A stretch of 64,000 bases of DNA, taken from the IMG/VR virus record IMGVR_UViG_3300042400_000444. One strand, given 5' to 3'. This DNA is from a virus (Duplodnaviria > Heunggongvirae > Uroviricota > Caudoviricetes). A program made the translations under genes and the position numbers. Below, one piece after another: positions 650-58,167 of this stretch; the stretch's first letter is position 1, and the number at the start of each line of letters is the position of its first letter. The notes beneath the pieces are model-generated. The model had not been told where the DNA came from and made no database searches. It worked only from the letters and a program-made list of their open reading frames with translations.

Positions 650-994
650 ATGAAAACATTACGTGAATATATCGAGCAACTGACTGAACGTAGTCAAGTT
701 GACCCAGAAACACAAAATATGCTAACTATTGCAAAGGCAAAATACCCACAGGCCCAAGGCGATGATCTTAGTGCATTGGCTACATTAGTACGTAGATCAA
801 ACAAACATAGTATGGCCGATATTAAAACACTTGGTGCAGAAAATGATGCAGAAGAAGCCGACATCGACCAATTAGAAATTGAAAACAATGGCGAAGATAT
901 GGCAATTGATGCAAACAGTCACAAACTCGATACACTTGATAACGAATTAACTCAATTGCGTAAACAAATAGCTACACTAACAGGTAGACACTAG
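650..994 (+). CDS. small protein with a T4 internal-protein-like N-terminal capsid-targeting sequence (MKTLREYIEQ)
   Basis: An in-frame ATG at 650 gives MKTLREYIEQL, which resembles the T4 IP capsid-targeting sequence MKTYQEFIAE. The six-frame ORF begins at 617. Confidence 0.4.
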   Translation: MKTLREYIEQLTERSQVDPETQNMLTIAKAKYPQAQGDDLSALATLVRRSNKHSMADIKTLGAENDAEEADIDQLEIENNGEDMAIDANSHKLDTLDNELTQLRKQIATLTGRH

Positions 995-1380
995 TGAAAA
1001 TTAATGAAATAATCACCGAAGGTTATGCTGGTGCAATACCCGATAATGCTAAAAACTCAAATACAGGTGAGTGGAAATTCCGTGACAAAGGTGGGTACGA
1101 TCGTACTTACAATTTAAATCGTGTAATGATGGCAGCTGCAATGTCAGATGGTTCTGGTAAACCAGTTGAAATGGACCAATCAAGTTGGGTCGAGAAGTTT
1201 AACCTTGCTCGCCCATATACAGAAGCAGAACACGGCATGATGAAATCTGCTATGAAAACAGTAGATAGCGAATACGAAGAAACTGAAAAAGATCATAAAA
1301 GTAAAGAAGATGATGATGTGCATAAAAACAGTTCAGTTCCGCACAATGCTGGTGCAAAGCGCAACAAGCCAAAGAACTAA
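994..1380 (+). CDS. internal-head-protein-like protein (N-terminus MKINEIITE)
   Basis: Shares the N-terminal MKINEI(I/L)xE with the ORFs at 55797 and 56250. Basic/acidic, low-complexity body. Confidence 0.45.
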   Translation: MKINEIITEGYAGAIPDNAKNSNTGEWKFRDKGGYDRTYNLNRVMMAAAMSDGSGKPVEMDQSSWVEKFNLARPYTEAEHGMMKSAMKTVDSEYEETEKDHKSKEDDDVHKNSSVPHNAGAKRNKPKN

Positions 1381-1562
1381 TGATCAAACAATATCGCATT
1401 AGAGCACAGGATTACACAGAGTCTTTAATACCTGATGCGATACTTGATGTAAACGACCCAGCATACACAATCGCAAGCGTAACAGATGTAAATCAACCGA
1501 TGACACTATCTAATTTTATAACAGCGCACAATATTAATACAACTCCATCACAAGATAAGTAA
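1380..1562 (+). CDS. hypothetical small protein
   Basis: 60-aa ORF; translationally coupled (ATGA overlap). Confidence 0.3.
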   Translation: MIKQYRIRAQDYTESLIPDAILDVNDPAYTIASVTDVNQPMTLSNFITAHNINTTPSQDK

Positions 1563-1566
1563 TAGT

Positions 1567-3129
1567 ATGGCTAAATCCTTAGAAGGCGTACTTGTAAAAC
1601 GTGCGCACCAAACAGAAACATTTACTGAAGAACAAATCCTAGAATTCGCGCGGTGCGCCGACCCTATTACGGGTCCACAGTATTTTATGAGCCATTACTT
1701 TTACATACAGCATCCTACTAAAGGTCGTATGCTGTACCAACCGTTTGATTACCAAACGCGACTTATTGATACATACCACAACTATCGCTTTAGTATTTCG
1801 TTAATGCCACGACAAACGGGTAAGTCAACATCTGCTGCAGGTTACTTGTTATGGTATGCAATGTTTGTGCCAGATAGCACTATTCTAATTGCCGCACACA
1901 AATACACAGGTTCACAAGAAATTATGGCACGTATACGTTATGCATATGAATTATGTCCTGATTTTATACGTGCCGGCGCAACAAGTTACAACAAAGGTAG
2001 TATAGACTTTGAAAATGGTAGTAGAATTAACTCATCGACTACAACAGAAAATACCGGACGGGGTATGTCTATATCATTACTATACTGTGATGAGTTTGCA
2101 TTTGTACGCAGTACAATCGGTAGAGAATTCTGGACTTCTATTAGTCCTACACTAGCAACAGGTGGTAAATGTATTATCACATCAACTCCAAACTCAGACG
2201 AAGACCAATTTGCTACCTTATGGAAAGGAGCCAACAAATGCATTGATGAATTTGGCAATGCCACTGAACTTGGAGTTAATGGGTTTAAATCATTCCGTAG
2301 CTTTTGGCGTGAACATCCAGAACGAGATGATAAATGGGCAAACGAACAACGTAGTCAATTAGGCGATGAACGATTCCGTCGTGAAATGGATTGTGAATTT
2401 ATCATTTGGGACGAAACATTAATTAATCCCGGGCATTTAATTGAAATGTCTGGTATTGACCCAATTGAGCGCCAAGGGCAAATACGTTGGTATAAAAAGC
2501 CAAGCCCAGCAAACACATATCTTGTTGCATTAGACCCAAGTTTAGGCACAGGTGGTGACCCCGCCGCAATACAAATATTTGAATTGCCTAGCTTTATACA
2601 GGTAGGCGAATGGCAACACAATCGCACACCAATACAGCAACAGATTGGTATACTTAGAGAAATCACACGTTACCTAGCAGAAACAGTGCCAGTGAACAAT
2701 ATATACTATAGTATGGAAAACAATACAATTGGTGAAGCGGCACTAATAACAGTAGCAGAAATGGGCGAAGAAAATATCAAAGGAACATTTTTAAATGAAC
2801 CTAAGAGTATGGGTTCTGGCAGACGCTATCGCAAAGGATTTAACACCACAAACAAAAGCAAAATATCAGCTTGTTCTAAATTAAAAAATCTAATTGAAAC
2901 TAAGCGTATGACTATTGCTAGTAAGAACTTAATATCAGAATTAAAAACATTTGTTGCCAGTGGCTCTAGTTTCGCTGCAAAACCTGGTGAAACAGATGAC
3001 TTAGTAATGAGCTTGGTATTAATAGTACGTATGGCAATGCTATTACAAACCTATGATGCAACACTTGATAACGCTATGCGTGATACACTTGATGACTTTA
3101 TAGAACCTATGCCATTCATACTTTTCTGA
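1567..3129 (+). CDS. terminase large subunit (T4 gp17-like)
   Basis: 520 aa. Walker A-like PRQTGKSTS; C-terminal DDLVMSLVL matches the T4 gp17 HDDLVMSLV region; overall gp17-like architecture. Confidence 0.85.
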   Translation: MAKSLEGVLVKRAHQTETFTEEQILEFARCADPITGPQYFMSHYFYIQHPTKGRMLYQPFDYQTRLIDTYHNYRFSISLMPRQTGKSTSAAGYLLWYAMFVPDSTILIAAHKYTGSQEIMARIRYAYELCPDFIRAGATSYNKGSIDFENGSRINSSTTTENTGRGMSISLLYCDEFAFVRSTIGREFWTSISPTLATGGKCIITSTPNSDEDQFATLWKGANKCIDEFGNATELGVNGFKSFRSFWREHPERDDKWANEQRSQLGDERFRREMDCEFIIWDETLINPGHLIEMSGIDPIERQGQIRWYKKPSPANTYLVALDPSLGTGGDPAAIQIFELPSFIQVGEWQHNRTPIQQQIGILREITRYLAETVPVNNIYYSMENNTIGEAALITVAEMGEENIKGTFLNEPKSMGSGRRYRKGFNTTNKSKISACSKLKNLIETKRMTIASKNLISELKTFVASGSSFAAKPGETDDLVMSLVLIVRMAMLLQTYDATLDNAMRDTLDDFIEPMPFILF

Positions 3130-3195: not shown

Positions 3196-3843
3196 ATGTT
3201 ATTTATTAATAACAAATATACACGTATATATTATAGCATTATATCTAATGCGCAACTAAGAATATTATCAAAAGAAACATATACAGAAACGCATCATATT
3301 ATACCAAAAAGCATAGGTGGTAGCAATCTAATAGATAATTTGGCTATACTAACCGCAAGAGAGCATTTTGTGTGTCATTGGTTACTTACTAAAATGGTAC
3401 ACGGCAAGCATCAAGAGTTAATGATATATGCCTTGAGAATGATGAATTGTACAGGCAAAAAGCAACAGCGATATAAAACATTAATAACAAGTAGAGTTTA
3501 TGCAAAGTTAAAGGCGCAATTTTCTATAATACACAGTAATAGAATTATTACCGATGAAGTCAGACATAATATGTCGGTTGGTCAAACAGGCAAAAAACAC
3601 TCGGATGCAACTAAGGCAAAATTTTCTAAAAATAGAATTGGCACTACATGGTCTGAAGAATCAAGACAAAAAATGCGTGGCCGGGTTATATCCGAAGAAA
3701 CCCGGCAGAAGCTACGAGATCGAATAGTATCTGACAAACAACGTGCGCAAGTAAGCGCAACACATAAAGGTAAAATAGTATCGGAAGAAACAAAACAAAA
3801 GATGCGAGAAGCCTATCAACGACGTAAGCAGGACAAAAGCTAA
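3196..3843 (+). CDS. HNH homing endonuclease with NUMOD3 repeats
   Basis: HHIIPKSIGGSN...DNLAILTAREH is an HNH motif. C-terminus has repeated xSEETKQKMR NUMOD3-like units. Inserted between terminase and the downstream gene. AT-rich. Confidence 0.75.
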   Translation: MLFINNKYTRIYYSIISNAQLRILSKETYTETHHIIPKSIGGSNLIDNLAILTAREHFVCHWLLTKMVHGKHQELMIYALRMMNCTGKKQQRYKTLITSRVYAKLKAQFSIIHSNRIITDEVRHNMSVGQTGKKHSDATKAKFSKNRIGTTWSEESRQKMRGRVISEETRQKLRDRIVSDKQRAQVSATHKGKIVSEETKQKMREAYQRRKQDKS

Positions 3844-3865: not shown

Positions 3866-6004
3866 ATGAGAGAAATATCAAAAATATCCGACGCACTATT
3901 TGAAAAGATCCGTGATCGTTTTGAAGATGTTAGTTTAGGCGACGAAAACGCTAAAGCAACACAAAAGCCAGAAGATGCACGTTTCTTCAACTTTGATTAT
4001 ACAGTTGATGGCAACAGTCACGGCAACATAACAATTAGTGTTATTGACGAAAATTCACTTAAAGTATACTTTAGTAAAAACATCAGCAGTGATTTAGATC
4101 AAGAAGAAAAAGCAAAATGGTATGGCTTCTTAAGAGAGCTGCGTGAGTTTGCTAAACGTAATCTATTGAGCTTTGAGCCACGTGATATTACACGTAGCAC
4201 ACTAAAACACCGTGACTTACAACAAGTAAGCAACTCAGACAGTACATACACTAAAGATGAAGTAATTGGCGAAAGCAGATTACACGGTACAAGTCGTAGC
4301 AGTTACGAGCAAGACGGCGATGTAAAGATTATTGTACGTCATAGCGATAAAGTAGACCCAGAACAACGTGGTGCACGTAGTCGTAAAATTAAAGCTCTAT
4401 TCATTGAAACAGCAGACGGCGCACGTATTAAACTCCCACACAACAACTTAAAATACGCACGTGCAATGGCACAACACGTATCACAAGGTGGTGAAGCTGG
4501 TGATGATTTCGGTCAACATATTACTAAGATAGCAGAAGAATGTGGTAAACTACGTCCGTTCAAATCAGCAATGATACGTAGAACATTTGAAGATGCTGAA
4601 ACACAATCAATGGCAGAAGCCGCATTTGAATATCACGGCTTGCTAAACAATACACTTAAAAAAATGGGTGGACGTAAAGGTTATGCTGCTTGTAAAGAAA
4701 GTTTTATAGCAGATGATGTTTTAATGGATGAATTTGATGTCGATGCATTGCGTGAACGCTTTGTTAAACGATCATTCAATGATAGAATGGAAGAAGCACT
4801 ACCACTTGTACAAAAGGCATATAATATGAAAAAATCTAATAACTTCGCACAACAATTTGAAAGCTGGGCTAACACAATAAGTGAAGGCACATGGGCTATA
4901 CCAGACACAGAAGAACAAGTTTCTGAATTGACTGACTTGCTAATGGAACCACTTCCAGTAGGAGTTGATGCAACTAATGCAACTAATGCATTATATAATT
5001 TAATCGGCGATGATGTATTGTTTGATCGATTGGGTGACTTAGCAGATGAAGATTCAGAAGCTGATGCACGTGATGTGGTTATGGACTGGGTTCAAGAAAA
5101 CATGCCAGACATTTATCAACAAATTATGTCAGTGATTGGCGACGAAGAACCAGCTGATCAAACTGTAGAGCCAGAACTGGATGAAGGTACTGCTGGTGCA
5201 GTAGTGGGCGGAGTAGCTGGCGCGGTACTAGGCAAATCTCCACAAGCTGCAGGAATGGGCGCAAACGCAGGCAGTGCAATACAAGATGCAATAGCTGAAA
5301 ACTACGATGATGAAGAAAACAATAGCACTGATGCAGTGCAAGCGTCGATTATTCGTCGCATTATAAACTCACATAGCGATTTACTATCACAATACGGACC
5401 AGAAGCAATTACAAATGCATCAAGAGATGTTGCAGAATGGGTAGGCAAAGTTGAAGAAATTGGTAGCAGTGATGTTAGCGCATGGGTTAAAGAAGTTATT
5501 AACATGTGTGGCCACAATGACGAAATAGAATTTGAACGTGACCGCGATGAACCAGATCAAGACGTTGGTAGCGATATGCAGTTTGATCAAGATAGAGATG
5601 AAGATTTACCACAATGGGCAGAATGGCCAACTAAGAACGGTGAAATGGATGAAAGCAAAATGTCTGACATGGACATTGACGTTAGTGAATTAACAGATCA
5701 AGAATTTTTAGAAAAATACAATCACACTAAACAACAAGCAATGGACGGCGATTGGGAAAATCACTACGAACCAGAAACAATGCCAGAGCCAACTGATGAA
5801 TCAATTGGTGATGATTACGTAAACAAAGATGAAAAAATGAAACGTATGGGCGCAAAGCCATTAAGCACATTAGACAAAGTTAAAATCATGCCAAGCCAAA
5901 TGAAAGCAATGGCTAAAGGTGACGACGAAGGCGACTTAACAGCATACAACAAACAATTCAATGAAGCAATTGCACAAATGCGCAAAATCGCAGGCATAAA
6001 ATAG
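3866..6004 (+). CDS. large acidic hypothetical protein (712 aa); possible head/scaffold-associated, function unassigned
   Basis: Long ORF with RBS GAGAAATATATATG. Very D/E-rich C-terminal half. Followed by a rho-independent terminator. Confidence 0.6.
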   Translation: MREISKISDALFEKIRDRFEDVSLGDENAKATQKPEDARFFNFDYTVDGNSHGNITISVIDENSLKVYFSKNISSDLDQEEKAKWYGFLRELREFAKRNLLSFEPRDITRSTLKHRDLQQVSNSDSTYTKDEVIGESRLHGTSRSSYEQDGDVKIIVRHSDKVDPEQRGARSRKIKALFIETADGARIKLPHNNLKYARAMAQHVSQGGEAGDDFGQHITKIAEECGKLRPFKSAMIRRTFEDAETQSMAEAAFEYHGLLNNTLKKMGGRKGYAACKESFIADDVLMDEFDVDALRERFVKRSFNDRMEEALPLVQKAYNMKKSNNFAQQFESWANTISEGTWAIPDTEEQVSELTDLLMEPLPVGVDATNATNALYNLIGDDVLFDRLGDLADEDSEADARDVVMDWVQENMPDIYQQIMSVIGDEEPADQTVEPELDEGTAGAVVGGVAGAVLGKSPQAAGMGANAGSAIQDAIAENYDDEENNSTDAVQASIIRRIINSHSDLLSQYGPEAITNASRDVAEWVGKVEEIGSSDVSAWVKEVINMCGHNDEIEFERDRDEPDQDVGSDMQFDQDRDEDLPQWAEWPTKNGEMDESKMSDMDIDVSELTDQEFLEKYNHTKQQAMDGDWENHYEPETMPEPTDESIGDDYVNKDEKMKRMGAKPLSTLDKVKIMPSQMKAMAKGDDEGDLTAYNKQFNEAIAQMRKIAGIK

Positions 6005-8817: not shown

Positions 8818-10020
8818 GTGTCAACCGTTATTAACATTGTACCCGACAATTTATCAAACAGAGACTATTACTGTTCGATGAAGTTTCGTATGCTGAAAGT
8901 GGATATCGAATCGGGTACTACTTATAATTGTCATGCGGCAACTCCTCATAAAATTGATTTTAATTGGTTACGTGCTCATCCAGGACAATTATTTAATTCG
9001 GAAATTAATATAACTGAACGTCGTATGATGTTAGAAAATCAACGTAATGCTAGTTGTGAACAAAATTGTTGGCCTGCTGAGGATATAAGTGCAATCAGTC
9101 CTCGGCTTTTGCAAGAAGGCACTAAAAAAACTCATACTGAAATAATAGCATCTCCTGAAATTTTAGATTTAACTATAGGTTCTAATTGTAATTTATCATG
9201 TTCATATTGCTGTAAAGAATTTAGTAGTTCGTGGCGTAATGATATTTTACAAAATGGCGATTATTTATTAACTGATGATAATAAACGATACAGTGTGAAT
9301 TCGACAGACAGAATTCTAAACAAACTTAGTTATAATAAAATTCATAATAGTAAATCAATACAATACTTGTACAATGAAATAACTTTATGGAGTGCAGATC
9401 TTAAACAACTTGTAATTACCGGTGGTGAACCATTTCTAGATAATACTTTATTAGATATCATTGACTCAGCCAAGTCAATTCCGATAATAGAAATTTATAC
9501 AGGACTAGGAGTCAATCCTTCGAGGTTTGCTCGAATACTAAAACAATTATCATTATTTAAAAATATCATATTAATTATAAGTGCCGAGGGAATAATGCAA
9601 TTTTTGGAATTTAATCGGTATGGGATTGACTGGGAAGAATTTAAACAAAAAATAGTTCAACTTGAAAATTCTGGAATTGACTTTAAATTTCAATCTACTA
9701 TTACTAATTTAACATTATTTGGATTTGCTGACTTTTATAAATATTTTAATCAACACCGAATCGAATTAAATTTTGCTTATCAACCCAACATGATGGCACC
9801 GTATGTACTTGATCCGGCAAGTAAACAAATAATTTTAGATACACTCCAAAAAATATTGCCAGAATCGGAATTTAAAAAAATACAAATGTCGATTAATCAA
9901 ACTCCAACTAACTTGCAGAGAATTAATATAAAAGAATTTTTAACGGAATTTACAAGACGTAGACCGGATATCAGCACAGATATCTTTCCAAAGTCATTTA
10001 TAAATTGGATCAATGAATAA
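8818..10020 (+). CDS. radical SAM enzyme (paralogue A)
   Basis: CNLSCSYC is a CxxxCxxC motif. GGEPFL glycine-rich SAM motif. N-terminal C..K..CH motif shared with the ORF at 24302. GTG start immediately after the upstream stop. Confidence 0.8.
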   Translation: MSTVINIVPDNLSNRDYYCSMKFRMLKVDIESGTTYNCHAATPHKIDFNWLRAHPGQLFNSEINITERRMMLENQRNASCEQNCWPAEDISAISPRLLQEGTKKTHTEIIASPEILDLTIGSNCNLSCSYCCKEFSSSWRNDILQNGDYLLTDDNKRYSVNSTDRILNKLSYNKIHNSKSIQYLYNEITLWSADLKQLVITGGEPFLDNTLLDIIDSAKSIPIIEIYTGLGVNPSRFARILKQLSLFKNIILIISAEGIMQFLEFNRYGIDWEEFKQKIVQLENSGIDFKFQSTITNLTLFGFADFYKYFNQHRIELNFAYQPNMMAPYVLDPASKQIILDTLQKILPESEFKKIQMSINQTPTNLQRINIKEFLTEFTRRRPDISTDIFPKSFINWINE

Positions 10021-10475
10021 TGTGGTATAACAAAGTAGTACAAAATATTGGCACGTTACCTGACTTTATTGACTTCTATAGCAACGAATTGGATCAAGCA
10101 AAACGTGAAGTTAAGGTATACGGCAATATTGAAAAAGGGCTAGCATCATTGCCCGGAGTTACAGAGCAACGGTTCAATCAGTTACAGGAGATTGAAGCAG
10201 TATTGAACTTTCTCAACATCAAACTTCGCAAAATCCGCCAAGACCACTACAAAAAGTATCTCGAAAGCTACGCACGTGCGTTAACTTCTCGCGATGCTGA
10301 AAAGTATGTCGATGGTGAAAGCGAAGTAATTGATATGGAAACTATTATCAACGAAGTCGCACTATTGCGCAACAAGTGGCTTGGCATCATGAAAGGGCTA
10401 GAAGCAAAATCATACATGATCGGACATATTGTTAGACTGCGTACAGCAGGAATGGAAGATGCAACAGTCAATTAA
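10020..10475 (+). CDS. uvsY: UvsY-like recombination mediator
   Basis: 151 aa. The C-terminal NKWLGIMKGLEAKSYMIGHIVRLR resembles T4 UvsY LQYWGILLDFCSGALDAIKSRGFAIKHIQDMR. Confidence 0.45.
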   Translation: MWYNKVVQNIGTLPDFIDFYSNELDQAKREVKVYGNIEKGLASLPGVTEQRFNQLQEIEAVLNFLNIKLRKIRQDHYKKYLESYARALTSRDAEKYVDGESEVIDMETIINEVALLRNKWLGIMKGLEAKSYMIGHIVRLRTAGMEDATVN

Positions 10476-10725
10476 TCCAGTAGACGAATTATTAGAGCAA
10501 TGGGAAGAAATGAAATATTGTTCCTCTCATATTACTCCAACAGATGACATCGACATATTAGATTATATGCGTCGCAAAGGGCAACTTATGGCATATTCAC
10601 AAGAATTGCGCTATGCAAGGTTGCAGAATAATACAGAAGTTGAAGCAGAGTATACAACAAAATTTATAGAAGCATACACTAACTTCAGCAGAGACTTTAT
10701 TTTTAGGATTTTAAAAAATGGCTAG
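10429..10725 (+). CDS. hypothetical protein (start uncertain, possibly ATG at 10459)
   Basis: ORF overlaps the end of uvsY. Confidence 0.3.
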   Translation: MLDCVQQEWKMQQSINPVDELLEQWEEMKYCSSHITPTDDIDILDYMRRKGQLMAYSQELRYARLQNNTEVEAEYTTKFIEAYTNFSRDFIFRILKNG

Positions 10726-11614
10726 ACATGCACTTAGGGTATTAAATCAACTCAGAGAATACGATAGTTTTCTTGACAGTTTACACACAATTGTAGACAT
10801 GGGTTGCGGAACCGGCGAAGACATTACGTGGTGGGCAACATTAGAAACACGTGATGACCCACCAGTACCACACAATTATAATTGTTTTGCTGTTGATCGC
10901 GACCCTGCTAAACTAGATCAAGTGCCTGATCTTAAAAATATACACAAAACTAAACAAGATTTTAATACACGTTGCATACCCGTACAAGCTGATTTAATGT
11001 GGGCACATGATAGTTTACAGTATAGCACTAACCCAATCGAAACATTAAAAGTATGGAATGAGCAAATGAATGTTGATGCTATGCTAGTATTGAGCATACC
11101 GCAACATTCCGGAGTTGCAGACAATAGGTACTATAGTCGTACACATAGCGGATGTTTTCATAACTTTACTCCGACTAGTTTAATTTATATGCTTGCAGTA
11201 AATGGATTTGATTGTAAAGATGCATATATGCTTAAAGAATTTAATGATCCGTGGATTCATATTGCTGTATACAAATCAGATGTTGCACCGAAAGATGCAG
11301 ATACAACGTCGTGGCTTGATTTAATTGATAGTGGATTATTGAATCAGACTGTAATCAATTCAATTACTTCATATGGTTATTTGCGCCAAGAGGATATTTT
11401 ATATCCATGGTTAGATAAAGAGAACTATTTTATTGATTATGTAAGCCAACAGACAGTAATTCCTGCAGAAGCTGTACACAATGATGCTGGTGTAGTTAAT
11501 ACTAAAAAACAAGCCAAAAAATCTACAGTAAAGCAAGCGAAACCAACAAGGGTAGAAACTACAATAGCAAAACCGGTTGGTGTAATGCGTCCACCTAAGA
11601 AAAACTATGATTAA
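10718..11614 (+). CDS. class I SAM-dependent methyltransferase
   Basis: VDMGCGTGED motif I. Confidence 0.6.
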   Translation: MARHALRVLNQLREYDSFLDSLHTIVDMGCGTGEDITWWATLETRDDPPVPHNYNCFAVDRDPAKLDQVPDLKNIHKTKQDFNTRCIPVQADLMWAHDSLQYSTNPIETLKVWNEQMNVDAMLVLSIPQHSGVADNRYYSRTHSGCFHNFTPTSLIYMLAVNGFDCKDAYMLKEFNDPWIHIAVYKSDVAPKDADTTSWLDLIDSGLLNQTVINSITSYGYLRQEDILYPWLDKENYFIDYVSQQTVIPAEAVHNDAGVVNTKKQAKKSTVKQAKPTRVETTIAKPVGVMRPPKKNYD

Positions 11615-12371
11615 TAAAGTTGTACTTGTGACCGGCGGGTTTGACCCGCTTCATTCCGGGCATATAGAATATTTCAAAGCTGCTAAAGCACTTGGCAAGA
11701 TACTTGTTGTTGGTGTGAATAGTGATGCCTGGGTAGCTCGCAAGAAGGGCAGAGCATTTATGCCATCTACTGAACGTATTGCTATTATTGAAAACTTAAA
11801 GATGGTTGATCATTGCATATTGTTTAATGATAATGATAACACAGCCATTGAGGCAATTAATAACGTAAAACTAATGTACCCTAACAGTCAAATTATATTT
11901 GCCAACGGTGGCGACAGAACAGCTAATAATATTCCAGAAATGATAGTCAATGATATAGTATTTAAATTTGGCATCGGCGGCGGTAATAAGCTCAACAGTA
12001 GCAGTTGGATATTAGATGAGTGGAAAGCACCTAAAACTGACCGAGAATGGGGCTATTATCGTGTATTACATGACGTTCCGGGCCTAAAAGTGAAAGAATT
12101 AACCATTGATCCGGGCAAGCGCCTAAGTATGCAGAAACATTACAATAGATCTGAATTATGGTTTATTGCAGATGGTGAGGCAACGGTTAGTGAATATAGC
12201 ATTGTTTATCCAACTGCTCTACAAAATCCACATCTACCTAAACATTCGACCCATCGCATACCAGAAGAACAATGGCATCAACTTGCTAACCCATACGACA
12301 GACCCGTTCGCATAATTGAAATACAATATGGCGATATCTGTGTTGAGGATGACATAGAACGTAAAGCATAA
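11607..12371 (+). CDS. cytidylyltransferase-family nucleotidyltransferase fused to a cupin domain
   Basis: GGFDPLHSGH (HxGH nucleotidyltransferase motif, TagD/RfaE-II family). C-terminal cupin-like segment LSMQKHYNRSELWFIADGEA. Confidence 0.6.
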   Translation: MINKVVLVTGGFDPLHSGHIEYFKAAKALGKILVVGVNSDAWVARKKGRAFMPSTERIAIIENLKMVDHCILFNDNDNTAIEAINNVKLMYPNSQIIFANGGDRTANNIPEMIVNDIVFKFGIGGGNKLNSSSWILDEWKAPKTDREWGYYRVLHDVPGLKVKELTIDPGKRLSMQKHYNRSELWFIADGEATVSEYSIVYPTALQNPHLPKHSTHRIPEEQWHQLANPYDRPVRIIEIQYGDICVEDDIERKA

Positions 12372-14014: not shown

Positions 14015-14089
14015 GGGCCTGTAGCTTAATGGTAAAGCGGAGAACTCATAATTCTAGGAGTGCTAGTTCAATTCTAGCCAGGCCCACCA
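14015..14089 (+). tRNA. tRNA-Met/Ile2 (anticodon CAT)
   Basis: 7-bp acceptor GGGCCTG/CAGGCCC, D-arm GCTT..AAGC, anticodon loop CTCATAA, T-loop TTCAATT, encoded CCA. Confidence 0.75.
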
Positions 14090-14098
14090 AACAACACT

Positions 14099-14173
14099 AC
14101 CCCGGTGGTCCAAGGAATGGGCACCGTTCTTCTAAAGCGGCTTATATTGGTTTGAATCCAATCCGGGGTACCA
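14099..14173 (+). tRNA. tRNA-Arg (anticodon TCT)
   Basis: Acceptor ACCCCGG/CCGGGGT, anticodon loop CTTCTAA, T-arm ATTGG-TTTGAAT-CCAAT, CCA. Confidence 0.7.
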
Positions 14174-14196
14174 ATATTTAAATATAAGGAAATATA

Positions 14197-14397
14197 ATGT
14201 CAGATTTAAATGAATATGATTATGAACAAGCAATGGCAGAATTTTTAGCTAACGGTGGCGAAGTAAAACAAATCGCCCGTGGCGTACAAAGTGAAACAGC
14301 AACAACAAACTTCTGGGGTGCACCAAAGAAAAAAGCCGCAGTAGAAGCAGTAAGTGAACTGGGCGATACTGCTGGAATTGACATAAACGATGTTTAG
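14197..14397 (+). CDS. hypothetical small protein
   Basis: 66-aa ORF with RBS AAGGAAATATAATG. Confidence 0.35.
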   Translation: MSDLNEYDYEQAMAEFLANGGEVKQIARGVQSETATTNFWGAPKKKAAVEAVSELGDTAGIDINDV

Positions 14398-15124
14398 CTT
14401 TTTTAAAAAGAAACTAATATTGGTCGGCAGTCGTCATAACTTGTCGGATATCAGCGTAATTGCGACAATGAATAATTATAAGATTGTTGGAATATTAGAT
14501 AAACATTATTGGGGCAATACTCCGGAGATTTGTGGTATTCCTGTGATAGGGTCTGAAGAGGAATTACTAGTACCTAATAATAAATGGGCAAAGTGTAATT
14601 TCTTTCCAGCAAATTGGTGGGATGGTAAACAAGCACGTGGACAAGAGTTTGATGCAGATGCACTTAGACGAGACCGATTGGAGTTACTCGACAAGTCTGG
14701 AGTCAATGTAGTGAATTTAATATCGAAAGAAGTGCATTGGTTTCATAATAAATCAAATTTAGTAATGGGTAAGGGAATATTAATTTTAAGTAATTCTAGC
14801 ATAGGCGAGAATATAACTATAGGCGACTACAGTGTAATTGATTGGGACGTTCGAATAAACAATACTGAGATTGGCCGTAATAGTATTGTTGGTACAGGAA
14901 GTTTATTGGCGCATGTTAAGGTTGGTGATAATGTTCGTATAGGTGCTAGGTGTACATTGATACCTAGTAGAAAAAAAGACTTGCTCACGATAGGAAATAA
15001 TGCTATTATATATCTTGTTAGTTTAGTATTAGATGACGTTGCAGAGAATGGAATTTATACAATGCACGGTAAAACTAGACAAAGATTCAAAAAATCACCG
15101 GATATAACACCGGTTCAAAAATAA
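14390..15124 (+). CDS. hexapeptide-repeat (left-handed beta-helix) acetyltransferase, NeuD/PglD-like
   Basis: C-terminal [IV]G..x repeats (IGENITIGDYSVIDWDVRINNTEIGRNSIVG...VKVGDNVRIGARCTL). N-terminal Rossmann-like region. Confidence 0.6.
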   Translation: MFSFFKKKLILVGSRHNLSDISVIATMNNYKIVGILDKHYWGNTPEICGIPVIGSEEELLVPNNKWAKCNFFPANWWDGKQARGQEFDADALRRDRLELLDKSGVNVVNLISKEVHWFHNKSNLVMGKGILILSNSSIGENITIGDYSVIDWDVRINNTEIGRNSIVGTGSLLAHVKVGDNVRIGARCTLIPSRKKDLLTIGNNAIIYLVSLVLDDVAENGIYTMHGKTRQRFKKSPDITPVQK

Positions 15125-15149
15125 AAGATAAATAATTAGATAAAGTGCT

Positions 15150-15178
15150 TGACAAAGATATAAATAGAATATATAATA
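15150..15178 (+). promoter_or_regulatory. sigma70-type promoter
   Basis: TTGACA-N17-TATAAT (cttgacaaagatataaatagaatatataat). Confidence 0.5.
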
Positions 15179-15378
15179 GCAGCATAGTAAGAAATTAATT
15201 AAAGGATACGAACGCAAAATGTTTAAAACGTGTAATCAATTTAAGAAATCACCGGTGCAGATACTTGCCACGATGTCTTATTGGTCAGCGATTGAGACAT
15301 TAGGCAGTAATGATCGTACACCGCATAATGAGGGTTTAAGTTAACGTTTATTTTTATATCATAAATGAATTTTTACTT

Positions 15379-15411: not shown

Positions 15412-15428
15412 CATTTAAGGAGCCGAAG

Positions 15429-15849: not shown

Positions 15850-15851
15850 TT

Positions 15852-54108: not shown

Positions 54109-55515
54109 ATGAGCAAAGAATATTCAGCAGACCTACAACGTTTATTTTTAGAAATGATGTTACAAGACCCGCAAAGTTATGTGCGAGTACAAAACATCTA
54201 CAATCCCGAAAACTTTGATAGAAGTTTACGTGAAGCTGCTAAATTTATTAAACAACACAGTGACGAATACAGAACACTTCCTACCATTGATCAAGTGCAG
54301 GCAGTAACTACAGTCACACTTAAACACGTGCCCGACCTAACTGAAGATCACTATAGCTGGTTTATGACAGAGTTCGAGGGCTTTACTAAACGTAACGAAC
54401 TTGAACGTGCAATTCTTGCGGCGGCAGATATGTTAGAGAAGGGCGAGTATGATCCTGTAGAAAAACTTATTAAAGACGCTGTACAAATAAGTTTAACTAA
54501 AGACATGGGTATAGAATACTTTGAAGACCCACGTACTCGAATCGACAAATATTTCAACAGTGGCGGCCAAGTAAGCACAGGCTGGCCACAAATGGATAAG
54601 ATATTGTACGGTGGCTTTAGTCGCGGTGAACTTAACATCTTTGCAGGCGGATCTGGTTCGGGTAAATCATTGGTTATGATGAACATTGCACTTAGCTGGT
54701 TGCAAGCTGGGCTAAGTGGTGTGTATGTAACATTGGAACTTAGTGAAGAACTATGTAGTCTGCGTACAGATGCTATGCTTACTGGTATGAGTACAAAAGA
54801 CATTAGAAAAGATATTGATACAACAGAACTTAAAGTTAAGATGGTGGGTAAGAAATCTGGACAATATCGTGTTAAGGGCTTTCCAGCACAAAGTAACGTA
54901 AACGACATACGCAGTTACTTAAAAGAAGTGCAGATACAAACAGGTATTAAAATTGACTTTGTTATGGTGGATTACTTAGACTTAGTAATGCCAGTGTCGA
55001 TTAAAGTTAACCCAAATGATCAGTTTATTAAAGACAAGTACGTAGCAGAAGAATTGCGCAACTTAGCAAAAGAGCTTAATGTATTACTTGTAACAGCATC
55101 GCAGTTAAATCGTAGTGCAGTTGAAGAAATTGAGTTTGATCATAGTCATATTGCGGGTGGTATTAGTAAGATTAATACAGCAGATAACGTGTTTGGTATC
55201 TTTACAAGCAGAGCAATGAAAGAACGTGGTCGCTATCAGTTACAATGTATGAAGTCACGTAGCTCAACTGGTGTAGGACATAAAGTAGACTTGGAATACA
55301 ATATCGAAACAATGCGCATTACAGACCCTGGTGAAGATATGGCAGGTGATGGCAATGGTGCAAGTCGTAATATCAACAATGTGCTAAACAACATTAAACC
55401 AAACTCAACAGTTAATAAAGAAACTGGTGAAATTACAGACCATCCAAAAATCAATGCAACTGTAGATAGTAGCAAACTTAAAAGTATGCTTGCTGGTCTA
55501 AAGAATTCGGATTAA
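54109..55515 (+). CDS. DnaB-family replicative helicase (T4 gp41-like)
   Basis: Walker A GGSGSGKS. DnaB-like H2-H4 motifs (VDYLDL, ASQLNRS). Confidence 0.8.
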   Translation: MSKEYSADLQRLFLEMMLQDPQSYVRVQNIYNPENFDRSLREAAKFIKQHSDEYRTLPTIDQVQAVTTVTLKHVPDLTEDHYSWFMTEFEGFTKRNELERAILAAADMLEKGEYDPVEKLIKDAVQISLTKDMGIEYFEDPRTRIDKYFNSGGQVSTGWPQMDKILYGGFSRGELNIFAGGSGSGKSLVMMNIALSWLQAGLSGVYVTLELSEELCSLRTDAMLTGMSTKDIRKDIDTTELKVKMVGKKSGQYRVKGFPAQSNVNDIRSYLKEVQIQTGIKIDFVMVDYLDLVMPVSIKVNPNDQFIKDKYVAEELRNLAKELNVLLVTASQLNRSAVEEIEFDHSHIAGGISKINTADNVFGIFTSRAMKERGRYQLQCMKSRSSTGVGHKVDLEYNIETMRITDPGEDMAGDGNGASRNINNVLNNIKPNSTVNKETGEITDHPKINATVDSSKLKSMLAGLKNSD

Positions 55516-55558: not shown

Positions 55559-55807
55559 TTGCAAAAGCGCACCCGTAGTATCCTTACTGAACTCGATGAG
55601 CTATTACAGCACAAGGATAAAGCAAATCTGATTGAAAGCAGAGCCAATAACATCATTAATGGTGCTATTAATCTCATTAATCACATCCGTGAAAGCTACG
55701 ATGCAGAAGCCGCCGGTGAGTTAGAACGACGTTTACTCAATGCAATTAAAGGACAAGACCCTGCAAAATTTGCACGGGGCATACGGAAACTGAAAGATGA
55801 AGATTAA
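55559..55807 (+). CDS. hypothetical small protein (TTG start)
   Basis: RBS GGAGTAAGATCTTG. Confidence 0.3.
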   Translation: MQKRTRSILTELDELLQHKDKANLIESRANNIINGAINLINHIRESYDAEAAGELERRLLNAIKGQDPAKFARGIRKLKDED

Positions 55808-56237
55808 TGAAATATTAGCTGAAGCAGAGATTGACGATTTAATAGCACAATCTACCGCCCCTGAAGTTAAAAAACCCGGAATAGTCGATAGATTTAATGC
55901 ATCAGCACAACGCGGCGCAGCTAGTGTTGCTAATCGTAAAGCAAATCCTGGATTAATCGGTGGAGCACTCAATGGTGTTGCAAATGGTATTGGTGCTGTA
56001 TCAAATACTATAGCAAATACTACTAAAGGTATCCCGACTAGCTATGCTACTGCATTACCAAACACAGCGCAAGATGCTGCCCCAACTGCATCTTTCTCTG
56101 GCACAAGTGGAGAACCAGTGGTTGCAGCTCAGAATGCAGCATATTTAAGAACACTTGCAAAAAACAAAGTAGCGACTACCGGAACAGACTCGCCAGAAGT
56201 AAATGCTGTAATTAAATCAGCCGGCTTATTAAAATAA
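55797..56237 (+). CDS. internal-head-protein-like protein (N-terminus MKINEILAE)
   Basis: Shared capsid-targeting-sequence-like N-terminus. Ala/Gly/Asn-rich low-complexity body. Confidence 0.45.
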   Translation: MKINEILAEAEIDDLIAQSTAPEVKKPGIVDRFNASAQRGAASVANRKANPGLIGGALNGVANGIGAVSNTIANTTKGIPTSYATALPNTAQDAAPTASFSGTSGEPVVAAQNAAYLRTLAKNKVATTGTDSPEVNAVIKSAGLLK

Positions 56238-56249
56238 TAGAGAACATAT

Positions 56250-56900
56250 ATGAAGATTAATGAAATATTAACAGAAAATACTGTAGACGAAGGCTTTGTT
56301 GATTCGCTTAAAAATTTAGGGCAAAATTTTACTAGTGGGCTCAAAGGTGGTGCTAAAATGGGCACACGAAATGCACAGGGAAAATTTACTAAAGCTGGTG
56401 TAATTGCAACTGCGGCTAACAAAATAGGTAAAGGAGTAGCTGCAATACCTAAACTTCCACAAGCGGTCGCCGCGGCAAAAACAGGATACCAAGCATCACA
56501 AACATCGAGACAACAAGCAGAGCAAACTAAAAAAGTTGCCACTGGTGCACTACAAAAATGGGTTGCGATTGATAAAAATATTAAATTATCGGGTCAGCAA
56601 TCTCAGCCTGCGCAAGCAGTACAATGGTTTACTACATTTACTGGTGTGGCGCCAACTACTACACCCGTTAATACATCTCTTAACACAATGTCTCAATGGG
56701 TGAATACAGAGGTTTCTAATTTTATGGCAAAACGAGCATTAGGGCCAGCCGCCACACCGGCACCGACAGCAAAAGTTGCAAAACCAAAACCTGTAAAACC
56801 AACAGCATTACCGACAATAGGTGGCATCGGACCAACTGATCCTAGATATGCTGCACTTGCCGCTAAAACTAGTACCGCACCAGCAACACCAACAGTTTAA
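56250..56900 (+). CDS. internal-head-protein-like protein (N-terminus MKINEILTE)
   Basis: Shared capsid-targeting-sequence-like N-terminus. A/K/T/P-rich C-terminus. Confidence 0.45.
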   Translation: MKINEILTENTVDEGFVDSLKNLGQNFTSGLKGGAKMGTRNAQGKFTKAGVIATAANKIGKGVAAIPKLPQAVAAAKTGYQASQTSRQQAEQTKKVATGALQKWVAIDKNIKLSGQQSQPAQAVQWFTTFTGVAPTTTPVNTSLNTMSQWVNTEVSNFMAKRALGPAATPAPTAKVAKPKPVKPTALPTIGGIGPTDPRYAALAAKTSTAPATPTV

Positions 56901-56913
56901 GTATGGACATTAA

Positions 56914-58167
56914 ATGAAGTTATTTGAAATAAAGAAACAAACACCGCAATGGTTACTTGCTGAAGCAACAGTTGCTGCACCAAAAATTCATATAGAACAC
57001 TTAGAAGATTTAATCTTTAATAGTGGCTATGTGGGTGCGCAAGCGGCATTAAACTACGTAGAAAGTTTACGTGCTATGTTAGCAGAAGGCACAGGTACAA
57101 CTACACAGCTCACAGTTAAATGGGATGGCGCTCCTGCAATTATCTGTGGTATTGACCCGAGTGATAGTAAGTTTTTTATTGGTACTAAATCAGTATTTGC
57201 TAAAGGTGAGCCAAAACGTTGTAAAACACCAAAAGACATTGACAAATGGTACAGCGCACAACCAGAGCTTGCTACTAAATTACTTTCAGCATTAAAACAT
57301 CTCCCAAAACTTGGCATCGGTGGCGTTATACAAGGCGACTTAATGTTTACAGAAGGCGATGTAAGCACTGTATCTATTAATGATGAAGATTGTTATGTGT
57401 TTACCCCAAACACAATTACGTATGCAGTACCAGTTGATAGCAACTTAGGTAAACGTATTGCGAAAGCTAGTCTTGGTATTATATTCCACACTAGCTACGA
57501 AGGCACTTCACTAGAGGCAATGACAGCAAACTACGGAGTAAACGTAGGTAGCTTGCATCAAACGTCAGCGGTATGGTTTGATGATGCAACATATAAAGAC
57601 TTCACAGGCATTGCAAGTTTAACGCCGACTGAAAACGCAAGCATACAAAAACAAATTGCATCAACAACAGCAACAATAGAGAAGATTGGGCAAGCTCGCT
57701 TTGACATCATATTAAACAATAAAGACTTTGCACGTAGCATTAAACCATTCATAAATCAAATGGTAAGACAAGGCGAACAAGTGGGCGAACCATTGCAATT
57801 CTTACAAAAGTTTGTTGACTATTACAATGCTGAACTAATGAAAGACATTGAGAATTTATCGGGCGGTATTGCAGGACGTGCGGCACAAGCTCGCTTGGTA
57901 AAGATTAAAGAAAAAGAACAATGGGTAGCAGACAATGCAAATAACTTGCTGATTATACTTGCTACATACAAACGTATTATCGAACTTAAACATGCGTTGA
58001 TGCGTAAACTACAACAAGTAGACAGCATTGGTACATTTCAGAAAACAAATGACGGTTACAAAGTAACTGCTCCAGAAGGCTTTGTTGCAATAGGACACGA
58101 TGGCGGTGCAATTAAGCTAGTCGATAGACTTGAATTTACACGTACAAACGCATTGCGCCGTAGTTAA
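56914..58167 (+). CDS. RNA ligase 1 (T4 RnlA)-like nucleotidyltransferase carrying an N-terminal capsid-targeting-sequence-like motif MKLFEI
   Basis: Motif I VKWDGAPAI (KxDG). EGFVAIGHDGGAIKLVDRLEF parallels T4 Rnl1 EGYVAVMKDGSHFKIKSDW (motifs IV/V). Confidence 0.5.
   Translation: MKLFEIKKQTPQWLLAEATVAAPKIHIEHLEDLIFNSGYVGAQAALNYVESLRAMLAEGTGTTTQLTVKWDGAPAIICGIDPSDSKFFIGTKSVFAKGEPKRCKTPKDIDKWYSAQPELATKLLSALKHLPKLGIGGVIQGDLMFTEGDVSTVSINDEDCYVFTPNTITYAVPVDSNLGKRIAKASLGIIFHTSYEGTSLEAMTANYGVNVGSLHQTSAVWFDDATYKDFTGIASLTPTENASIQKQIASTTATIEKIGQARFDIILNNKDFARSIKPFINQMVRQGEQVGEPLQFLQKFVDYYNAELMKDIENLSGGIAGRAAQARLVKIKEKEQWVADNANNLLIILATYKRIIELKHALMRKLQQVDSIGTFQKTNDGYKVTAPEGFVAIGHDGGAIKLVDRLEFTRTNALRRS

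What the first reader, a model, noticed from the sequence alone, without database searches (positions are those of the whole stretch)
650..58167. Family of proteins sharing a T4 internal-protein-like capsid-targeting sequence, including an RNA-ligase-like enzyme
Five ORFs begin MK(T/I/L)(L/N/F)(R/E)E(Y/I)(I/L)..(E/Q): 650 (MKTLREYIEQ), 994 (MKINEIITE), 55797 (MKINEILAE), 56250 (MKINEILTE), 56914 (MKLFEIKKQ). T4 IPI-III share MKTYQEFIAE, which targets them into proheads and is removed by gp21 after (L/I)-x-E; each ORF here has an (I/L)-x-E within the first 9 residues. Three are low-complexity IP-like proteins. The fifth is a 417-aa protein with RNA-ligase motifs (KWDG; EGFVAI...K). An encapsidated, co-injected RNA ligase could pre-empt host anticodon-nuclease defences (as Rnl1 repairs PrrC damage), given the phage's heavy investment in tRNAs.
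Basis: partly seen in the sequence, partly recalled or inferred. Interest (0 to 1): 0.65.

Follow-up and report, generated by a model that had tools for sequence, protein, structure and literature searches.

The report
Capsid-targeting tags on phage cargo proteins
A giant T4-related phage puts the same short N-terminal 'address label' on at least five, probably eight, otherwise unrelated proteins, one of them an enzyme with an RNA-ligase fold; the label most likely marks them for packing into the capsid and delivery into the host.

Summary
All five ORFs exist, and three more (59490, 60173, 60865) start the same way: 8 of 87 ORFs against 0.085 expected.

The 9-mer MKINEI[ILM][TA]E matched 119 or more viral contigs. 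Of 123 matches, 121 sit at an ORF start, on at least 26 unrelated cargo families, with free synonymous codon use. Selection therefore acts on the peptide.

The tag resembles the T4 gp24 propeptide (MAKINELLRE) and the internal-protein capsid-targeting sequence. It ends in (I/L)-x-E, the T4 gp21 cleavage motif.

Every nearest cultured relative encodes a gp21 homologue. In PA5oct the small protein after the portal starts MKINDIITE and was detected in virions.

Across DUF6267, 101 of 123 representatives carry a tag, often T4-like (MKSFKQFLTE). In 93 of those, hydrophobic-x-E lies just before the core.

Packaging, cleavage and ligase activity remain inferred. The anticodon-nuclease role is untested.

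The parts
650..994 (+). 114-aa acidic protein. Its N-terminus, MKTLREYIEQLTE, is the closest in the window to the T4 IP targeting sequence MKTYQEFIAE. Alternative ATG at 617.
994..1380 (+). 128-aa protein with a GTG start and the tag MKINEIITE. It belongs to a widespread tagged family with a 'Y..NRVMMAAAM.DG' / 'YRFG.ALAG' core.
   Evidence: (orthologues in L024 and L080)
55559..55807 (+). 82-aa untagged conserved protein (phrog_11854, 'virion structural protein') that opens the module downstream of the DnaB helicase. TTG start.
55797..56237 (+). 146-aa basic, Ala-rich, internal-protein-like cargo with the tag MKINEILAE.
   Evidence: (L061, L072, L085, L086)
56250..56900 (+). 216-aa basic (pI 10.3), Ala/Thr/Lys-rich, internal-protein-like cargo with the tag MKINEILTE.
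   Evidence: (L018, L026, L029, L046)
56914..58167 (+). 417-aa DUF6267 protein with a ligase-type nucleotidyltransferase fold and a helical insertion at residues 238-370.
56914..56964 (+). N-terminal tag of the DUF6267 protein, residues 1-17 (MKLFEIKKQTPQWLLAE). L3, E5 and L15 are invariant and E17 nearly so. An indel-rich linker follows. The tag is disordered in the model.
57118..57129 (+). KWDG (K69-G72), the candidate motif I with the nucleotidyl-accepting lysine. K69, D71 and G72 are conserved in at least 90% of 115 diverse homologues.
58075..58116 (+). EGFVAI...K401, the candidate motifs IV and V. E388, G389 and V391 are at least 90% conserved; K401 is invariant.
   Evidence: aligned locally to PA5oct gp256 EGYVIR..VKIVDK
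59490..59699 (+). 69-aa ORF starting MKIVELTNK. Possible tagged protein and the weakest case. Conserved in relatives.
60173..60865 (+). 230-aa acidic protein starting MKLSEMSST. Homologue of PA5oct gp247, which was detected in virions by ESI-MS/MS.
   Evidence: tblastn E 5e-12
60865..61257 (+). 130-aa protein starting MRLREFAGE. It occupies the same position as PA5oct gp246 (VKIKDILVE, MS-detected).

Best explanation
The shared N-terminus is this phage lineage's version of the T4 capsid-targeting propeptide.

Proposed mechanism:
1. A 9-17-residue tag of the form M-(K/R)-hydrophobic-x-E-hydrophobic-hydrophobic-x-E (MKINEI[IL][TA]E in three ORFs) binds the scaffolding core while the prohead assembles. 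Whatever is fused behind it is enclosed.
2. A T4 gp21-type prohead protease then cuts after the Glu that has Ile/Leu at P3. This frees the mature cargo inside the head.
3. The cargo leaves with the DNA at infection.

Cargo in this window:
- two basic Ala-rich internal-protein-like proteins (55797, 56250)
- a 128-aa protein of a widespread tagged family (994)
- an acidic 114-aa protein (650)
- probably the proteins at 60173 and 60865
- a 417-aa DUF6267 enzyme (56914) whose fold and conserved Lys/Asp/Gly, Glu/Gly and Lys residues place it in the covalent nucleotidyltransferase (ligase) superfamily, nearest to RNA ligases

What is shown: the tag's position, modularity, peptide-level conservation and cleavage-type ending; DUF6267 membership; the ligase-type fold; gp21 homologues and virion detection of tagged proteins in relatives.

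What is inferred: binding to the core, cleavage, presence in this phage's virion, ejection, and any ligase activity or substrate.
For: In the window: 8 of 87 ORFs carry the tag against 0.085 expected. The motif is found only at ORF starts.

In IMG/VR:
- MKINEI[ILM][TA]E matches 119 or more loci. Of 123 matches, 121 lie within 44 codons of an upstream stop and 107 have no upstream ATG.
- Cargo falls into at least 26 unrelated clusters, and every tag codon varies synonymously. The residue after Glu9 is A, G, S, D or N in 69 of 83 cases.

T4 precedent:
- gp24 starts MAKINELLRE. gp24 and the internal proteins carry 10-20-aa propeptides (CTS) removed by gp21 (PMC5694885).
- In the IPIII CTS, targeting depends on residues 4 and 7, and processing on residues 8 and 10 (PMC9026906).

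Protease:
- PA5oct gp331 is 38% identical to T4 gp21 (E 9e-24).
- Homologues occur in Phosso, Vibrio 2.275.O, Atu_ph07, XaC1 and CBB.

Head modules:
- The small protein after the portal starts MKINDIITE in PA5oct (ESI-MS/MS detected), MKLVELFEA in Vibrio 2.275.O and MRYNEFSKE in Phosso.
- Most of the 23 small post-portal proteins recovered from metagenomic head modules start the same way; a few start differently, probably from the mechanical start-codon choice.
- A T4-like contig with a gp20 portal carries an MKINEILTE protein.

Conserved module: the module downstream of DnaB is conserved in PA5oct, where most members were MS-detected.

DUF6267:
- Pfam E 1.9e-105.
- AlphaFold pLDDT 91.8, with residues 1-22 disordered.
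- Conserved K69/D71/G72, E388/G389 and K401.
- 101 of 123 family representatives are tagged. In 93 of the 101, hydrophobic-x-E ends within 8 residues of the core, against 29 +/- 4 in shuffles.
- A divergent DUF6267 member carries the exact tag MKINEILTE (L063).

T4-like cyanophages: the MS-detected virion cytidylyltransferase of S-CREM2 starts MKNFSSFLTE.
Against: - No virion or N-terminal data exist for this phage, and its head module and protease lie outside the window.
- The tag uses aliphatic Ile where T4 IPIII has Tyr4 and Phe7.
- The DUF6267 tag (MKLFEIKKQ...LLAE) differs from the MKINEI tag.
- 22 of 123 DUF6267 representatives are untagged, including S-CRM01 g132.
- The syntenic KIDG protein of PA5oct (gp256) was not MS-detected, and it is not demonstrably DUF6267.
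- The DUF6267 gene sits next to replication genes (DnaB / gp41) in many phages.
- The PA5oct and S-CREM2 virion proteomes also contain obvious non-structural enzymes, so MS presence is not specific.
Confidence: 0.65

Rival explanations
1. The DUF6267 protein is a cytoplasmic, replication- or repair-associated nucleotidyltransferase that is not packaged. Its N-terminal extension only resembles the tag.
For: - It lies directly downstream of the DnaB / gp41 helicase in this window, PA5oct, Phosso, Syn9, Melnitz and S-CRM01.
- 22 of 123 representatives have no extension.
- The syntenic PA5oct KIDG protein was not detected by MS.
- No ORF of DUF6267 size near the replication genes appears in the part of the S-CREM2 virion proteome table that I read. 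I did not locate a DUF6267 homologue in that genome.
Against: - 93 of 101 tagged members keep hydrophobic-x-E right at the tag/core boundary, against 29 +/- 4 in shuffles.
- Many tags are canonical T4-type (MKSFKQFLTE), and one member has the exact MKINEILTE.
- The tag is disordered and separated from the core by an indel-rich linker.
- Its immediate neighbours here are tagged proteins, and in PA5oct they are virion proteins.
Confidence: 0.2
2. The tag marks prohead-core or scaffold components that are degraded and expelled during maturation. The proteins are assembly factors, not delivered cargo.
For: - The same kind of N-terminus sits on the small gp67-position core proteins.
- ORFs 650 and 60173 are acidic and helical, like scaffold proteins.
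- In T4, gp67, gp68 and gp22 are cut into fragments (PMC5694885).
Against: - Cargo includes a 400-aa enzyme fold with conserved catalytic-type residues.
- Cargo also includes Cys-rich and basic proteins typical of internal or ejected proteins.
- PA5oct homologues (gp333, gp247) and same-position counterparts (gp246) are found in mature virions.
Confidence: 0.15
3. The shared N-terminus is a by-product of translation-start optimisation (A/T-rich early codons, Lys at position 2) or of recent duplication. It is not a functional peptide signal.
For: - The codons are A/T-rich.
- ORFs 55797 and 56250 are adjacent and could be duplicates.
Against: - Every tag codon varies synonymously while the amino acids are kept.
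- Conservation stops abruptly after Glu9, and the next residue is small.
- At least 26 unrelated cargo clusters carry the tag.
- The pattern is about 100-fold enriched at N-termini relative to internal positions.
- The same peptide is a known cleaved propeptide in T4 gp24.
Confidence: 0.04

Closest known systems
T4 capsid targeting sequence of internal proteins IPI/IPII/IPIII (MKTYQEFIAE) and the N-terminal propeptide of gp24 (MAKINELLRE), removed by the gp21 prohead protease
   Same: - Short N-terminal peptide on unrelated proteins.
- Hydrophobic positions followed by (I/L)-x-E.
- Small residue after the Glu.
- Hypervariable cargo behind a conserved tag.
- gp21-family protease in the clade.
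- The window tag matches the gp24 propeptide at K-I-N-E-(L/I)-L-x-E.
   Different: - The consensus is one residue shorter than the IP tag, and aliphatic (Ile) where IPIII has Tyr4 and Phe7.
- It is used by a distant jumbo-phage lineage and by many environmental T4-like phages.
- The cargo shows no sequence similarity to T4 IPs.
- Cleavage and targeting are not demonstrated.
T4 Alt (ADP-ribosyltransferase), an enzyme packaged through a gp21-cleaved propeptide and injected
   Same: An enzyme, not a structural protein, predicted to be carried in the head behind a removable N-terminal peptide.
   Different: The fold and chemistry differ: here a ligase-type nucleotidyltransferase. Injection and activity have not been shown.
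ATP-dependent RNA ligases (T4 Rnl1, T4 Rnl2, Naegleria NgrRnl, fungal Trl1, T. brucei REL1)
   Same: - KxDG motif, EG motif and a conserved C-terminal Lys.
   Different: - No Pfam ligase model is matched.
- Motif III reads QGD, not GE.
- A helical domain of about 130 residues is inserted between motifs IIIa and IV.
- There is no OB or other known C-terminal specificity domain.
- Activity and substrate are unknown.
Inner-body / ejection proteins of phiKZ-like giant phages (phiKZ, 201phi2-1, SPN3US), processed at (S/A/G)-x-E
   Same: Many head-internal proteins with N-terminal propeptides, cut after Glu by a gp21-related protease.
   Different: Those propeptides are often longer than 100 residues and do not share a 9-mer. 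P3 is small (S/A/G) in those phages and Ile/Leu here.
Virion-associated cytidylyltransferases and kinases of T4-like cyanophages (S-CREM2 gp154, S-CRM01 g130)
   Same: - They carry T4-type tags (MKNFSSFLTE, MISFDQFLSE).
- They lie next to, or are fused with, DUF6267 in related phages.
- They were detected in purified virions.
   Different: They belong to different enzyme families. The passages I read of the S-CREM2 paper do not connect virion presence with an N-terminal tag. The window's own cytidylyltransferase-like protein (11607-12371) is untagged.

Membership tests
T4-type capsid targeting sequence / gp21-removed N-terminal propeptide | Short (about 10-20 aa) peptide at the extreme N-terminus | tested here: met
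   Tags start at Met1 in all eight window ORFs. 121 of 123 metagenomic matches are at ORF starts.
T4-type capsid targeting sequence / gp21-removed N-terminal propeptide | Processing determinants: Glu at P1 and Ile/Leu at P3 at the end of the tag | tested here: met
   I/L7-x-E9 in the three MKINEI ORFs; L4-R5-E6 and L11-T12-E13 in ORF 650; L3-F4-E5 and L15-A16-E17 in the DUF6267 protein. The residue after the Glu is small in 69 of 83 cases.
T4-type capsid targeting sequence / gp21-removed N-terminal propeptide | Targeting determinants at the positions of IPIII Tyr4 and Phe7 | tested here: inconclusive
   The equivalent positions are hydrophobic but aliphatic (Ile3/Ile6) in MKINEI tags. ORF 650 has Leu4/Tyr7. 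Cyanophage-type DUF6267 tags have Phe4 and Phe/Tyr7.
T4-type capsid targeting sequence / gp21-removed N-terminal propeptide | The same tag on unrelated cargo (modularity) | tested here: met
   At least 26 blastp clusters among 82 cargo sequences. Window cargo has no mutual or database similarity beyond the tag.
T4-type capsid targeting sequence / gp21-removed N-terminal propeptide | The phage encodes a gp21-family prohead protease | tested here: inconclusive
   The head module lies outside the window. All nearest isolates encode a homologue: PA5oct gp331 is 38% identical to T4 gp21, and Phosso, Vibrio 2.275.O, Atu_ph07 and XaC1 have one too.
T4-type capsid targeting sequence / gp21-removed N-terminal propeptide | Protein present in the virion with the tag removed | not testable with these tools
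   Indirect only. PA5oct gp333 (MKINDIITE), gp247 and gp246, and S-CREM2 gp154 (MKNFSSFLTE), were MS-detected. Their N-termini were not mapped.
T4 internal proteins IPI/IPII/IPIII (homology of the mature part) | Sequence similarity beyond the tag | tested here: not met
   No Pfam or PHROG family matches ORFs 55797, 56250 or 994. They are IP-like only in size, charge and composition.
Pfam DUF6267 (PF19782) | Full-length match above the gathering score | tested here: met
   353.8 bits against a cut-off of 27, E 1.9e-105, residues 26-412. 2497 representatives at E <= 1e-3.
ATP-dependent RNA ligase (Rnl1 PF09511 / Rnl2-type PF09414) | Match to the family profile at the curated threshold | tested here: not met
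   No hit for the window protein. 3 of 115 homologues give weak PF09511 hits, best E 6e-4. The profile search against PDB sequences found nothing.
ATP-dependent RNA ligase (Rnl1 PF09511 / Rnl2-type PF09414) | Motif I KxDG with the nucleotidyl-accepting lysine | tested here: met
   K69-W-D71-G72; K, D and G are conserved in at least 90% of 115 homologues sharing 31-54% identity.
ATP-dependent RNA ligase (Rnl1 PF09511 / Rnl2-type PF09414) | Motifs III, IIIa, IV and V in order | tested here: inconclusive
   Candidates are QGD140-142, F163/Y170, EG388-389 and K401 (invariant). The assignment is by eye, with a 130-residue helical insertion before motif IV. No residue-level superposition was available.
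ATP-dependent RNA ligase (Rnl1 PF09511 / Rnl2-type PF09414) | Adenylyltransferase-domain fold | tested here: met
   [not shown]
ATP-dependent RNA ligase (Rnl1 PF09511 / Rnl2-type PF09414) | Covalent enzyme-AMP formation and strand joining | not testable with these tools
   Needs biochemistry.

The most novel reading that the evidence does not exclude
DUF6267 is an encapsidated, co-injected nucleic-acid ligase. It is present in thousands of T4-like cyanophage, pelagiphage and jumbo-phage lineages, and is often paired or fused with a tagged HxGH nucleotidyltransferase. On this reading it acts in the first seconds of infection, before any phage gene is expressed, for example by resealing tRNA or other RNA cut by host defence nucleases, or by sealing or protecting the incoming genome. 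More generally, the M-x-hydrophobic-x-E-hydrophobic-hydrophobic-x-E tag would be a sequence-readable label that predicts the whole injected-protein repertoire of T4-related phages directly from metagenomes.
Probability: 0.2. Interest if true: 0.8.

Novelty: new variant of a known kind. Interest (0 to 1): 0.62.

Why it matters
Proteins injected with phage DNA act before any phage gene is expressed. They are prime candidates for countering host defence, as T4 IPI* and Alt do. They are normally found only by proteomics of cultured phages.

If this tag works as in T4, packaged cargo could be read directly from sequence in uncultured T4-related and jumbo phages. The sample here already shows dozens of unrelated cargo families.

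The analysis also gives a first functional handle on DUF6267: a ligase-type fold, probable packaging, and a link to HxGH nucleotidyltransferases. This large family (about 2,500 clusters at 50% identity) is common in marine cyanophages. I found no paper mentioning it.

It may also explain why 'non-structural' enzymes keep appearing in cyanophage virion proteomes. The two cases I checked carry a T4-type tag.

Tried and rejected
- AlphaFold with a shallow alignment (35 sequences, 70-94% identity) gave pLDDT 69. The motif regions were unresolved and its Foldseek search was meaningless. It was replaced by a 115-sequence alignment of 50%-cluster representatives.
- Foldseek of the good model against PDB found nothing significant; T4 Rnl1 appeared only at E about 1.
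- phmmer of the 417-aa protein against PDB hit the GroEL apical domain (E 3e-6). The hit disappeared with the family profile, so I treat it as chance.
- hhalign of the family profile against single sequences gave only local, non-significant matches at the motif regions. Targets were T4 Rnl2, PA5oct gp256 and Phosso 446.
- A local HMM search does not place PA5oct gp256 or Phosso 446 in DUF6267. Their homology stays unproven despite synteny and KxDG / EGxV..K.VDK motifs.
- The T4 late-promoter consensus TATAAATA is not enriched in the window: 7 matches against 9.1 expected.
- I first took the PA5oct RefSeq 'head maturation protease' gp212 for the prohead protease. It looks ClpP-like by eye and shows no similarity to T4 gp21. 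The true homologue is gp331.
- Literature searches for DUF6267, MKINEI and Syn9 gp183 found nothing relevant. The S-CRM01 paper was not held.
- I looked for other RNA-repair genes among the larger window ORFs and found none.
Full report
**What the window is.** The 64-kb window comes from a large myovirus distantly related to T4.
- It carries a large terminase subunit (1567-3129), gp32-like SSB, UvsX and UvsY, a DnaB-type helicase (54109-55515) and 27 tRNA genes between 14 and 29 kb.
- Its UvsX is 63-68% identical to those of the jumbo phages Phosso, Vibrio phage 2.275.O, XbC2, Atu_ph07, CBB and GAP32.
- No phage in the reference collection is close at the DNA level.
- Metagenomes hold many near relatives, on contigs of 310-340 kb.

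**The observation.** All five ORFs exist as described.
- ORF 994 uses a GTG start.
- ORF 650 has an alternative in-frame ATG at 617, and gene callers on identical contigs chose either start.
- Listing every ORF start showed three further members: 59490 (MKIVELTNK), 60173 (MKLSEMSST) and 60865 (MRLREFAGE).
- A six-frame scan finds the motif only at these starts, plus one spurious minus-strand hit.
- Eight of 87 plus-strand ORFs match a relaxed pattern at the N-terminus. The internal frequency of the same pattern predicts 0.085 (P about 6e-14; the pattern was defined post hoc).
- The members cluster in two places, just upstream of the terminase and just downstream of DnaB.
- A 10-kb flank recovered upstream of the window holds tail genes with ordinary N-termini and one more tagged ORF, MKNFLQHLTE.

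- Of 123 matches, 121 lie within 44 codons of an upstream in-frame stop and 107 have no upstream ATG. They are ORF starts.
- The sequences behind the tag fall into at least 26 unrelated clusters: Ala/Gly/Lys-rich proteins, Cys-rich proteins, a large 'YRFG.ALAG' family that includes ORF 994, and enzymes.
- Every tag codon varies synonymously (AAA/AAG, ATT/ATC/ATA, AAT/AAC, GAA/GAG). Conservation ends at Glu9, and the next residue is A, G, S, D or N in 69 of 83 distinct cases.
- This rules out an RNA or DNA element and a simple codon-bias effect.

**Relation to T4.**
- The T4 record gives gp24 the N-terminus MAKINELLRE. It matches the window tag at K-I-N-E-(L/I)-L-x-E.
- gp24 and the internal proteins carry 10-20-residue N-terminal propeptides, called capsid targeting sequences, that gp21 removes (PMC5694885).
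- In IPIII, targeting depends on residues 4 and 7, and processing on residues 8 and 10 (PMC9026906).
- The IP tag MKTYQEFIAE is quoted in bioRxiv 10.1101/2021.01.19.427310.
- ORF 650 (MKTLREYIEQLTE) and the upstream MKNFLQHLTE follow the IP pattern.
- The MKINEI tags are one residue shorter and aliphatic at the two targeting positions. They keep Ile/Leu at P3 and Glu at P1.

**Protease and virion evidence from relatives.**
- PA5oct has the T4 head-gene order: portal, 73-aa protein, acidic protein, protease, scaffold, major capsid protein.
- Its protease gp331 is 38% identical to T4 gp21 (E 9e-24).
- Homologues occur in all isolates nearest to the window.
- The 73-aa protein after the portal, gp333, starts MKINDIITE and is annotated as detected by ESI-MS/MS.
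- The same-position proteins of Vibrio 2.275.O, Phosso and a T4-like metagenomic contig start MKLVELFEA, MRYNEFSKE and MILRELFYF.
- Most of the 23 small post-portal proteins recovered from 80 metagenomic head modules start the same way. A few start differently, probably because the ORF listing picks the first start codon.
- The module downstream of DnaB is syntenic in PA5oct, where most members were MS-detected. ORF 60173 is homologous to one of them, gp247.
- Caveat: the PA5oct proteome also lists ribonucleotide reductase, thymidylate synthase and similar enzymes. Detection there is not specific.

**The 417-aa protein.**
- It is a full-length member of Pfam DUF6267 (E 1.9e-105) and of phrog_455. 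It matches no ligase family.
- The family is large: 2497 representatives at 50% clustering.
- Among cultured phages it occurs almost only in T4-like cyanophages, pelagiphages and Methylophilales phages, plus a few jumbo phages.
- With 115 diverse homologues, AlphaFold gave pLDDT 91.8 and pTM 0.88. Only residues 1-22 were disordered.
- K69, D71 and G72 are conserved in at least 90% of homologues, as are E388 and G389. K401 is invariant.
- Three of 115 relatives give weak PF09511 (Rnl1) hits.
- Foldseek and a profile search of PDB sequences found nothing.
- I conclude that it belongs to the covalent nucleotidyltransferase superfamily, nearest to RNA ligases. It is not a member of a described RNA-ligase family, and its substrate is unknown.

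**Is the enzyme tagged?**
- In 35 close homologues the first 17 residues (MKLFEIKKQTPxWLL[TAV]E) are conserved. An indel-rich linker follows, then the core HLEHLED.
- Of 123 family representatives, 22 start directly at the core (M[AS]KN[TL]H...) and 101 carry 12-44 extra residues.
- 43 of the extensions are T4-type (for example MKSFKQFLTE, with Phe4, Phe7, Leu8 and Glu10). 23 are of the M[KR]-hydrophobic-x-[ED]-hydrophobic type seen in this window.
- 93 of the 101 have hydrophobic-x-E ending within 8 residues of the core, against 29 +/- 4 after shuffling.
- A divergent DUF6267 member (E 4e-15 to the family profile) carries the exact tag MKINEILTE.
- This is the pattern expected of a removable, lineage-specific targeting peptide.

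**Counter-evidence.**
- Some members are untagged, including S-CRM01 g132.
- The gene keeps company with DnaB / gp41 in many phages.
- The syntenic PA5oct KIDG protein was not MS-detected and cannot be shown to be DUF6267.

**A partner enzyme.**
- In Melnitz, four consecutive genes carry T4-type tags. They include DUF6267 and a 650-aa HxGH (CTP_transf_like) protein.
- In Syn9 the next gene after DUF6267 is a tagged 'cytidyltransferase' (MKKFSAFLSE).
- Several representatives are fusions of CTP_transf_like and DUF6267.
- In S-CREM2 the cytidylyltransferase gp154 was found in CsCl-purified virions (PMC10665884). It starts MKNFSSFLTE.
- The S-CRM01 kinase g130, reported in virions according to the same paper, starts MISFDQFLSE.
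- These cases tie the tag to virion presence of enzymes. In the passages I read, the S-CREM2 authors do not mention a tag.

**Verdict.**
- The capsid-targeting interpretation is the best explanation (about 0.65). Packaging, cleavage and ejection are inferred, not shown.
- The enzyme is ligase-like in fold, not in family.
- The proposed defence against anticodon nucleases is untested.
- The kind of system is known from T4. New here are the tag variant, its breadth across uncultured T4-related and jumbo phages, and a conserved ligase-fold enzyme as probable cargo.

Noticed in passing
window 14015-28974: 27 tRNA genes on the plus strand, covering nearly all amino acids. They are interleaved with a B12-binding radical SAM gene on the minus strand (16123-18192) and a fatty-acid desaturase-like gene (20750-21493).
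   Followed up: partly
L127 (Syn9 gp183-185), L128 (Melnitz 15-18), P0148, P0229, P0251, P0252, P0257: DUF6267 is repeatedly adjacent to, or fused with, HxGH cytidylyltransferase-like (PF01467) domains. These partners also carry T4-type N-terminal tags, which suggests a co-packaged enzyme pair of unknown chemistry.
   Followed up: partly
L140 (S-CREM2 gp154), L139 (S-CRM01 g130, g131): Enzymes reported in cyanophage virion proteomes (a cytidylyltransferase and a Ser/Thr kinase) start with MKNFSSFLTE and MISFDQFLSE. These are T4-type capsid-targeting tags. The passages I read of the paper reporting the proteome do not mention them.
   Followed up: yes
L129 (T4 gp24, 9324-10607): The T4 gp24 N-terminus MAKINELLRE is almost the same peptide as the window tag MKINEI[IL][TA]E.
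   Followed up: yes
L137 7373-7978 (about 2.3 kb upstream of the window start): A 201-aa ORF starts MKNFLQHLTE. The same phage therefore uses both the aromatic T4-type tag and the MKINEI-type tag.
   Followed up: partly
window 3196-3843: A homing endonuclease gene (phrog_655) lies between the terminase and a 712-aa virion structural protein (3866-6004, phrog_13484).
   Followed up: no
window 61437-61715 and 62010-62333: These are probable NifU-like and IscA/HesB-like Fe-S cluster assembly genes. The call rests on the Pfam families of the syntenic genes in L004 (PF01592, PF01521), not on a scan of the window ORFs.
   Followed up: no
L132 26750-27421 and L133 23080-23712 (PA5oct): RefSeq annotates two 'head maturation proteases' in PA5oct. 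gp212 shows no similarity to T4 gp21 and looks ClpP-like by eye; it sits among ClpX, ClpA and ClpS genes. gp331 is the T4 gp21 homologue.
   Followed up: yes
window 56914-58167 (residues 182-341): A single-sequence search of PDB gave an unexpected hit to the GroEL apical region (E 3e-6). It vanished when the family profile was used, so it is probably chance.
   Followed up: yes
L002 7119-8459 (PA5oct gp256), L003 6025-7260 (Phosso 446): The syntenic position after the IP-like genes holds proteins of 411-446 aa with KIDG/KLDG and EG(Y/V)V...K(I/V)VDK motifs. HMM searches cannot link them to DUF6267. They may be a second, very divergent ligase-like family at the same locus.
   Followed up: partly
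window 11607-12371: An untagged bifunctional-looking protein combines a cytidylyltransferase-like domain with a mannose-6-phosphate isomerase cupin domain. It lies in a block with radical SAM and methyltransferase genes, possibly for sugar-nucleotide or DNA modification chemistry.
   Followed up: no
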